A stretch of 64,000 bases of DNA from positions 3,040,001 to 3,104,000 of the forward strand of contig JASGHG010000001.1 in assembly GCA_047602425.1 (NCBI GenBank), read 5' to 3'. This DNA comes from Nibricoccus sp. GTDB lineage: Bacteria; Verrucomicrobiota; Verrucomicrobiia; Opitutales; Opitutaceae. Below are positions 61,310-63,874 of this stretch, piece after piece. The position numbers and the translations under genes were made by a program. Below the pieces are notes generated by a model. The model searched no databases and was not told where the DNA came from. It worked only from the letters and a program-made list of their open reading frames with translations. Position 1 is the stretch's first letter. Each line of letters begins with the position of its first letter.

Positions 61310-62371
<1,062 letters not shown>

Positions 62372-62410: not shown

Positions 62411-62452
62411 AAGGGGCTGAAGGCCGATTCATTTCGCCTTCAGCCCTTTTTT
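62411..62452 (+). terminator. Intra-operon terminator or stabilising hairpin between gap and pgk
   Basis: AAGGGGCTGAAGGC/GCCTTCAGCCCTTT stem followed by a T-run. Confidence 0.8.
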
Positions 62453-62509
62453 ATTCTGCGCTGGACCTCTCATTTTCGTCCTCTACTATCGCAGGCTTTT
62501 TCCATTCCC

Positions 62510-63778
62510 ATGGCCAAATTCAAATCCATCCGCGATCTCAATCTCGCCGGCAAACGCGTGTTCATCCGCGTTGACTTCAACGTCCCACAGGACAAGGCCA
62601 CCGGCGCCATAACCAATAATGCCCGCATCGTGGCCGCTCTGCCCACGGTCCAATACGCTCTCGAAAAAGGTGCTTCCGTCGTTCTCGCCAGCCACCTCGG
62701 CCGTCCGGACGGCAAGGCCAGCGAAAAGTTCTCGCTGAAGCCGGTCGCGGTCGAAGTCGAAAAGCTTCTCGGCAAGCCCGTGAAGTTCCTCAACGACTGC
62801 GTCGGCGCCGAAGTTGAAAAAACCTGCGCTGCGCTCAAGCCCGGCGAAGTGGTTCTCCTCGAAAACCTTCGTTTCCACATCGAGGAAGAAGGCAAGATCA
62901 AGGAAAAGCAGGCCGACGGCACGGAGAAATCCATCAAGGCCGACCCGAAGAATATCGACGCCTTCCGCGCCTCGCTCTCGAAGCTGGCTGACGTCTACAT
63001 CAACGACGCCTTTGGCACCGCGCACCGCGCCCACAGCTCGATGGTCGGCGTTTCCCTCAAGGAAAAAGCCGCCGGTTTCCTCATGGAAGCCGAACTCAAT
63101 GCTTTCGCCAAAGTCCTCGATCATCCGCACCGTCCGCTCCTCGCCATCCTCGGTGGCGCCAAGATCGCCGACAAGATTCCGCTCATCAAAAACCTCCTCG
63201 ACACCGCCGACACCATCATCATCGGCGGCGGCATGAGCTACACCTTCAAGAAGGTGCTGCTCGACATGCACATTGGCGACAGCCTCTTCGACGCCGAAGG
63301 CGCCAAGCTCGTTCCCGAACTGATGGCCAAGGCCAAATCCCGCGGCGTGAAGATTCTCCTCCCAATCGACCACGTATGCGGCAACGCCTTTCCGAAAACG
63401 CCCGACACCAAAGTCGAAATCGAGCTCGATAACGACACCCCGGGCATTCCCGACGGCTGGATGGGCCTCGACGTCGGCCCGCAGACGCGCGCGATGTACC
63501 GCGACGCGATCATGAGCTCCAAGACCATCATCTGGAACGGACCTCCGGGCGTGTTCGAAGACGAACGCTTTGCCGCCGGCACCAAGGCTATGGCGGACGC
63601 CATTGCGCTCGCGACGGTTAACGGCGCGGTCACCGTCGTCGGCGGTGGCGACACCGCTACGGCCGCGAAGAAATTCAAGGTCGCCAAAGTCGTGACCCAC
63701 TGCTCCACCGGCGGCGGCGCCAGCCTCGAGCTCCTCGAAGGCAAGGTCCTCCCTGGCGTGGCATTCCTGGAGTCCTGA
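62510..63778 (+). CDS. pgk: Phosphoglycerate kinase
   Basis: [39 protein letters not shown]. Confidence 0.98.
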
Positions 63779-63789
63779 CGGACTCTGCT

Positions 63790-63874
63790 GGTCATGGGTG
63801 ATAGGTTATGGGTCATGGGTAAAAACCACGGACCTCAACTGTCACCCATCACCAATCAACCGTAACCCATCACC
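63790..63874. repeat. Inverted pair of heptamer arrays (GGTCATG / TCACCCA)
   Basis: ggtcatg-ggtgata-ggttatg-ggtcatg-ggt ... tcaccca-tcaccaa-tcaaccg-taaccca-tcacc. Confidence 0.88.

What the first reader, a model, noticed from the sequence alone, without database searches (positions are those of the whole stretch)
62510..63778. Eukaryote-type phosphoglycerate kinase inside a bacterial gap-pgk-tpi operon
Seen: [23 protein letters not shown][insert]-[69 protein letters not shown] and [11 protein letters not shown]. Established: these closely match human and yeast cytosolic PGK (LRFHVEEEGKG...[44 protein letters not shown]). Typical bacterial PGKs lack the insert and read E..ND..F and HAS. Codon usage matches native highly expressed genes and the flanks are bacterial, which argues against contamination. 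Inference: ancient in-situ replacement from a eukaryote, or a bacterial sister group of eukaryotic PGK.
Basis: partly seen in the sequence, partly recalled or inferred. Interest (0 to 1): 0.78.

Follow-up and report, generated by a model that had tools for sequence, protein, structure and literature searches.

The report
Eukaryote-type glycolytic kinase spreading among bacteria
This bacterium's only phosphoglycerate kinase, a core sugar-burning enzyme, really is the kind found in yeast and humans; it has repeatedly displaced the ordinary bacterial gene in the same spot of the chromosome in related bacteria, but its link to eukaryotes has been noted in print and the direction of the ancient transfer stays open.

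Summary
Real and native. The 422-aa PGK is the genome's only one, sits in gap-pgk-tpi, has native high-expression codon usage and scores 520 bits on yeast versus 385 on the best bacterial structure. With eukaryotic cytosolic PGKs it forms a 100/100 clade. The type is fixed in the host family (26 of 26) but patchy elsewhere: 39 of 301 Verrucomicrobiota, 23 of 61 genomes of the Fibrobacter phylum. Flanking-gene trees interleave carriers and non-carriers (10 changes; AU p<1e-5), so it replaced the ancestral pgk in place, repeatedly; six domain-swap chimeras also exist. Direction is unresolved: full-length trees nest the bacteria beside dinoflagellates (83/74, 91/90), but eukaryote monophyly is not rejected (p=0.34). 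Santana-Molina et al. 2025 already name Planctomycetota-Verrucomicrobiota as potential donor of eukaryotic PGK. Repeated replacement, Fibrobacter carriers and chimeras were not found in my eight literature searches, but that paper's main supplement was unreadable. The scan's earlier notes hold no report of this on other DNA.

The parts
61325..62371 (+). gap, type I GAPDH, 348 aa, of the clade that includes trypanosomatid glycosomal GAPDH
   Evidence: TIGR01534 435 bits over cut-off 367; best PDB 1k3t 479.8 bits
62411..62455 (+). Strong hairpin followed by a U-run between gap and pgk (terminator-like or mRNA-stabilising; function inferred)
   Evidence: -26.8 kcal/mol, z -5.65, 0 of 200 shuffles as good; not listed by the consensus scan
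62510..63778 (+). pgk, eukaryote-type phosphoglycerate kinase, 422 aa, sole PGK of the genome
62582..62596 (+). VPQDK loop motif shared with dinoflagellate-type PGKs (similar words also in a few Amoebozoa-like and animal sequences, so homoplastic)
   Evidence: QDK in 143 of 147 bacterial loci
62876..63001 (+). 42-residue segment between ENLRF and NDAFG: eukaryote-type 38-residue state plus 4 extra residues (23 in ordinary bacteria)
63698..63718 (+). HCSTGGG motif (HV or HI in most PGKs; HC also in dinoflagellates and one Amoebozoa-like clade)
   Evidence: HC in 119 of 147 bacterial loci
63790..63873 (+). Intergenic foldback built of heptamer repeats, one of a dispersed family; not part of the enzyme story
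   Evidence: z -3.0; 13 heptamer arrays in the genome
63883..64000 (+). Start of tpi (255 aa, bacterial type; continues to G000:C1:3104650, followed by a terminator-like hairpin)

Best explanation
It is the cell's working phosphoglycerate kinase (1,3-bisphosphoglycerate + ADP <-> 3-phosphoglycerate + ATP), co-located with gap and tpi and probably co-transcribed. SHOWN: sole copy, intact frame, active-site motifs present, native codon usage, member of one clade with eukaryotic cytosolic PGK; the ancestral gene of the phylum is the ordinary type, and the eukaryote-type gene has taken its place between unchanged gap and tpi many times. INFERRED (about 0.9): it works as a normal PGK and moves between bacteria by homologous recombination using conserved gap/pgk/tpi sequence, which also made half-and-half chimeras. 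INFERRED (about 0.5, the weak step that sets the confidence below): the clade is bacterial in origin, a surviving sister of the gene that the eukaryote ancestor acquired shortly before LECA; today's carriers are later recipients, so they do not identify the donor phylum.
For: Function: one PF00162 match, no stops; D22, N24, R39, H62, R65, R121, R173, K218, K222, E350, D381 align with yeast and human (roles recalled). Clade: 100/100, stem about 0.48; bacterial subclade 98/94. Replacement: all 39 and all 23 carrier genomes have one match only; ordinary PGKs follow taxonomy (Opitutales 97); TPI (42 rows) and GAPDH (41 rows) trees each need 10 changes of pgk type, 6 and 7 forced by starred branches, AU p 4e-6 and 2e-51; same genus g65: gap 93% but pgk 56% (L123 vs L097); L171 vs L054 gap 86%, pgk 50%, tpi 69%. 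Chimeras: 8 of 9 diagnostic sites shared in residues 96-190, 2 of 21 in 191-422, 0 of 4 in 1-95; N-domain inside the eukaryote-type clade 100/100, C-domain sister to ordinary PGKs 100/98. Bacterial origin: eukaryote monophyly not rejected (p 0.34 full length, 0.39 C-domain); root on the bacterial stem p 0.47 and inside the bacteria p 0.34/0.31; N-domain tree has eukaryotes as one clade (57/84) inside the bacteria; published sister-group reading.
Against: All five full-length trees and the C-domain tree nest the bacteria inside eukaryotes next to dinoflagellate-type sequences (83/74, 91/90, 83/90); SAR monophyly without them is only barely tolerated (p 0.067). No non-chimeric bacterial intermediate was seen on the long stem among the 150 representatives (tree used those with a long enough match). 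The published supplement labels the orthogroup 'LECA-B-U', which I read as phylum uncertain. The loci for the replacement test were chosen by me to include both types, so 10 changes is a count on that sample and cannot tell gains from reversions. No enzyme assay, transcript or vector evidence (searches found no carrier on plasmids or viral contigs).
Confidence: 0.5

Rival explanations
1. Eukaryote-to-bacterium transfer: soon after the eukaryote radiation a bacterium took up the cytosolic PGK of an early alveolate/dinoflagellate-side protist, and the gene then spread by the same in-place replacement through Verrucomicrobiota and the Fibrobacter phylum. Function and later spread as in the best explanation.
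For: Nesting beside dinoflagellates in every full-length tree (91/90 without outgroup); Amorphea recovered as expected (99/96); SAR monophyly p 0.067; shared VPQDK and HCSTGGG; long shared stem (0.48) against a short bacterial stem (0.09); not ancestral in either phylum.
Against: Eukaryote monophyly never rejected; N-domain tree points the other way and bacterial monophyly there is only barely tolerated (p 0.069); the bacterial and dinoflagellate stems are among the longest inner branches and may attract; both motifs recur in unrelated eukaryotes; E. coli gapA was once read as such a transfer and proved otherwise (PMC5610209, passage).
Confidence: 0.4
2. The eukaryote-type gene is ancestral in Verrucomicrobiota (the phylum itself being the donor) and was lost or replaced by ordinary PGKs in most lineages.
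For: Present in several orders and classes; fits the plain wording of the published donor list; change counts do not give direction.
Against: 258 of 301 genomes have the ordinary type, whose tree follows taxonomy, whereas the eukaryote-type clade is shallow (65-75% identity across classes and phyla) and mixes distant hosts.
Confidence: 0.05
3. Convergence or long-branch artefact: an ordinary bacterial PGK that only looks eukaryotic.
For: Inserts at the same loop arose separately in other bacteria.
Against: Same indel length as eukaryotes, 23 of 34 diagnostic sites shared with most eukaryotes along the whole protein, 100/100 under a site-heterogeneous model in full-length and both domain trees.
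Confidence: 0.02
4. Assembly chimera or eukaryotic contamination.
For: None found.
Against: Single 5.16-Mb contig, 99.97% complete, 0.42% contamination, no other PGK; same gene order in 62 of 80 loci, and the same gene type in records of cultured strains; no introns; native codon usage.
Confidence: 0.01

Closest known systems
Eukaryotic cytosolic phosphoglycerate kinase (yeast PGK1, PDB 1qpg/3pgk; human PGK1, 2wzb; orthogroup 'pgk_K00927-LECA-B-U' of Santana-Molina et al. 2025)
   Same: One clade (100/100), 55-65% identity, same loop insertion, HSS and GDTAT motifs, same catalytic residues.
   Different: Encoded in a bacterial gap-pgk-tpi cluster, 4 further residues in the loop, bacterial codon usage; the bacterial members form their own subclade.
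'Planctomycetota-Verrucomicrobiota' potential donor of LECA PGK (PMC11976288; section 10, passages and supplement tables seen; Supplementary Fig. 8 not seen)
   Same: Very probably the same bacterial sequences; same question.
   Different: The text I could read gives one clause. Here the carriers are shown to be patchy, later recipients, include the Fibrobacter phylum and chimeras, and my trees lean to nesting within eukaryotes. I could not test Planctomycetota.
Ordinary bacterial PGK in gap-pgk-tpi (e.g. PDB 1vpe, 1php; ordinary Opitutales loci L168-L172)
   Same: Same family (PF00162), same genomic slot, same inferred reaction.
   Different: 47-51% identity, 23-residue segment, HAS, separate clade.
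Eukaryote-like GAPDH in bacteria: E. coli gapA (PMC5610209, passage seen) and Clostridium thermocellum gap (Takishita and Inagaki 2009; recalled, not read)
   Same: A eukaryote-like glycolytic gene in a bacterium with debated direction of transfer.
   Different: Different enzyme; here the gene recurs across two phyla by repeated in-place replacement.

Membership tests
Phosphoglycerate kinase (PF00162, EC 2.7.2.3) | Full-length profile match over cut-off, intact frame | tested here: met
   497.6 bits, positions 1-379, no stops
Phosphoglycerate kinase (PF00162, EC 2.7.2.3) | 3-phosphoglycerate-binding basic patch and nucleotide-site residues | tested here: met
   Motifs located and aligned to yeast and human; residue roles recalled
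Phosphoglycerate kinase (PF00162, EC 2.7.2.3) | Measured kinase activity | not testable with these tools
   No assay; sole copy in a complete genome is indirect support
Eukaryotic cytosolic (LECA) PGK clade | Groups with eukaryotic cytosolic PGK to the exclusion of ordinary bacterial PGK | tested here: met
   100/100, also in both domain trees
Eukaryotic cytosolic (LECA) PGK clade | Loop insertion before NDAFG, and HSS | tested here: met
   42 residues here, 38 in most relatives and in 66 of 73 named eukaryotes, 23 in ordinary bacteria
Eukaryotic cytosolic (LECA) PGK clade | Descends from the LECA gene (nested inside eukaryotes rather than sister) | tested here: inconclusive
   Nested in best trees, but AU p 0.34, 0.39, 0.067; root scans uninformative
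Ordinary bacterial PGK of Verrucomicrobiota | Branches with the vertically inherited PGK of its own order | tested here: not met
   47-51% identity; separate clade
Bifunctional PGK-TPI (NF010569) | Fused TPI domain, score over 883 | tested here: not met
   478 bits, PGK half only; tpi is a separate ORF
In-situ xenologous gene displacement | Single copy, same genomic slot, flanks congruent with host while the gene is not | tested here: met

The most novel reading that the evidence does not exclude
A core glycolytic gene passed from an early eukaryote (dinoflagellate/alveolate side) into bacteria and then swept, by repeated in-place replacement and domain swapping, through Verrucomicrobiota and the Fibrobacter phylum. 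The 'PVC donor' of eukaryotic PGK would then be a recipient, and the eukaryote-type enzyme would carry an advantage that selects for it again and again.
Probability: 0.4. Interest if true: 0.72.

Novelty: new member of a known kind. Interest (0 to 1): 0.47.

Why it matters
The source of eukaryotic glycolysis is a long-standing question, and these are the closest prokaryotic relatives of our cytosolic PGK that I could find (up to 69% identity). Sister-group counts name donors by the phylum of present-day carriers; here the carriers are later recipients, so that label is unsafe whichever way the transfer went. If the gene came from a eukaryote, it is a rare case of a housekeeping gene moving into bacteria and spreading across phyla. 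Pairs of close relatives with either type in the same operon, and natural N/C-domain chimeras, give ready-made material to ask why one version of a universal enzyme keeps replacing another.

Tried and rejected
Contamination or chimera: rejected. Insert as a eukaryote-only marker: rejected. Rooting by outgroup: 28 root positions scanned, 18 not rejected by AU, the best on long unnamed rows. Rooting by a non-reversible model: no power, the listed positions lie within 1.7 log-likelihood units. VPQDK and HC motifs as proof of a dinoflagellate link: homoplastic. Mobile vector: none of 76 plasmid matches reaches 60% identity (best listed 47%); the one viral locus is 47%. Sigma-70 promoter scan: none found. 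ESM Atlas: nearest clusters are PGKs of Verrucomicrobiota, eukaryotes and Bacteroidota, no added resolution. The 76-row careful tree did not finish; its quick version is cited. Rows dropped: near-duplicates and partial domains; long-branch unnamed eukaryote-like rows and chimeras were left out; the final trees use 36-76 of about 310 aligned sequences. Literature searches without a paper on repeated replacement, Fibrobacter carriers or chimeras. Not done: structure prediction, read coverage, expression, any search of Planctomycetota genomes (no handle in that phylum).

Full report
Observation. It lies between gap (61325-62371) and tpi (from 63883) and is the only PF00162 match in a single-contig, 99.97% complete genome. 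Against solved structures it scores 519.8 bits on yeast and 510 on human PGK, but 385 on the best bacterial chain. It is 55-65% identical to 73 named eukaryotic PGKs and 47-51% to 11 ordinary PGKs from its own phylum. Codon adaptation is at the 99.6th percentile of 3469 rough ORFs (small reference set). Named top hits are Opitutaceae, which places the host in that family by inference.

The insert. Between ENxRF and NDAFG ordinary bacterial PGKs have 23 residues, eukaryotes 38 (66 of 73 named), and the 80 bacterial loci have 38 (60) or 42 (20; this gene). A long insert alone is not diagnostic: ordinary PGKs in other classes of the phylum have a different one of 44-50 residues.

Distribution. 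In 301 Verrucomicrobiota genomes the scores are bimodal: 39 at 563 bits or more (this genome, 26 of 26 in its family, 12 scattered others), 258 at 423 or less, 4 without match. In the class, 43 of 221 carry it, fixed in some families (13/13, 7/7) and sporadic in others (1/29, 1/4, 3/6, 2/7). In the phylum of the Fibrobacter locus L080, 23 of 61 carry it and 6 are intermediate. Record titles add Luteolibacter, Chthoniobacterales, Spartobacteria and Lentisphaerae (577 stretches matched, 80 kept). Every carrier has one match only, so it is replacement, not addition. Both gap and tpi are present near full length in 62 of 80 loci; the Fibrobacter copies stand alone. Planctomycetota could not be searched.

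Repeated in-place replacement. Ordinary PGKs of the phylum follow taxonomy, so they are the inherited type. On TPI (42 rows) and GAPDH (41 rows) trees, hosts with the two pgk types interleave: 10 changes each, 6 and 7 forced by starred branches, and one clade of carriers is rejected (p 4e-6, 2e-51). Within one genus gap is 93% identical while pgk is 56% (L123, L097); L171 and L054 share gap 86% and tpi 69% but pgk 50%. I chose these loci to hold both types, and counts do not give direction; the taxonomic pattern of the ordinary type does. The six intermediate genes and P0133 are chimeras: they share 8 of 9 diagnostic sites in residues 96-190 but 2 of 21 in 191-422; their N-domain falls inside the eukaryote-type clade (100/100) and their C-domain beside ordinary PGKs of the host's class (100/98). 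Homologous recombination is the inferred mechanism; no plasmid or viral carrier was found.

Direction. Eukaryote sequences came, partly named: animals, choanoflagellates, Capsaspora, fungi, Amoebozoa, oomycetes, dinoflagellates, one gregarine-like alveolate, and unnamed transcripts. No named Discoba, Metamonada, Cryptista, Haptista, Rhizaria or ciliates were in the set. Under LG+C20 (43 rows, 411 columns) eukaryotes plus these bacteria form a 100/100 clade; the bacteria are 98/94, Amorphea 99/96, and bacteria plus dinoflagellate-type plus one unnamed group only 83/74. Without outgroup and unnamed rows, bacteria plus dinoflagellates get 91/90 and SAR monophyly has p 0.067. But eukaryote monophyly is not rejected (p 0.34), a root on the bacterial stem has p 0.47, and the two domains disagree: the N-domain makes eukaryotes one clade inside the bacteria (57/84), the C-domain puts bacteria with dinoflagellates (83/90), neither significantly. 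I put about 0.5 on a bacterial sister or donor relic and 0.4 on a eukaryotic source.

How it works. All substrate- and nucleotide-site motifs are in place and align with yeast and human (roles from established knowledge), so it most likely catalyses the standard reversible phosphoryl transfer in glycolysis and gluconeogenesis. A strong hairpin with a U-run between gap and pgk (z -5.65) and a terminator-like hairpin after tpi suggest a longer transcript with a more abundant gap portion; this is inference. Why the type keeps spreading (advantage or neutral turnover) is untested.

What is known. Santana-Molina et al. 2025 (PMC11976288; section 10 and passages read; preprint passages) list Planctomycetota-Verrucomicrobiota as potential donor of LECA PGK; a supplement table labels the orthogroup LECA-B-U. 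Its main supplementary PDF, with the PGK tree, could not be read and may already hold some of what I report. A 2026 preprint notes the same phyla as frequent sister groups in carbohydrate metabolism and does not mention PGK in its main text (10.64898/2026.05.08.723234, passages). PMC6198282, PMC7729029 and PMC3342870 (term searches and passages) do not discuss these bacteria in connection with PGK. PMC5610209 recounts E. coli gapA, once taken for a eukaryote-to-prokaryote transfer (passage). Eight searches found nothing on repeated replacement, Fibrobacter carriers or chimeras; the library lacks most subscription papers. Earlier notes of this scan concern other PGK features.

Verdict. A genuine, native, ordinary-function enzyme whose kinship to eukaryotic PGK is already noted in print. 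The added value is evolutionary: carriers are recipients of a gene that keeps displacing its bacterial counterpart in place, and the direction of the original transfer is open and testable. Novelty: new member of a known kind; interest 0.47.

Noticed in passing
L161-L166 (G309, G349, G345, G320, G314, G339) and protein P0133: Natural chimeric PGKs in the Fibrobacter phylum: eukaryote-type N-domain on an ordinary C-domain, four of six inside gap-pgk-tpi.
   Followed up: yes
window 61325-62371: GAPDH is closest to trypanosomatid glycosomal GAPDH structures (480 bits vs 438), so the operon holds two genes with eukaryotic nearest structures. GAPDH types also vary among hosts.
   Followed up: partly
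window 63790-63873; also G000:C1 1652433, 3145410, 3146263, 3304683, 3748504, 4321406, 4322387: Foldback element made of tandem heptamers and their inverted complement; 13 arrays of three or more units in the genome.
   Followed up: partly
window 62411-62455: Strong hairpin plus U-run between gap and pgk, missed by the terminator scan because of its long loop.
   Followed up: partly
L118-L125, L133-L137, L178: Ordinary PGKs of other Verrucomicrobiota classes mostly carry a Lys/Ala/Glu-rich 44-50-residue insert at the same loop as the eukaryotic one.
   Followed up: partly
L060 (G304): Record titled 'uncultured Akkermansia sp.' has a 5.8-Mb genome and Opitutaceae-like gap, pgk and tpi scores; the title is probably wrong.
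   Followed up: no
G330, G358, G360: pgk appears in two pieces (residues about 5-69 and 72-420) in three genomes of the Fibrobacter phylum, and G326 and G338 match only from residue 71; possible frameshift, insertion or split gene.
   Followed up: no
proteins P0125, P0328, P0323, P0375, P0391: Dinoflagellate-type PGKs occur in many fusions (with TPI, HIT-family, enolase, GAPDH and other domains) and tandem copies.
   Followed up: no
L001/L006 branch: This genome's PGK and its closest relative sit on a longer branch than other family members (0.16 shared), mainly through C-domain changes.
   Followed up: no
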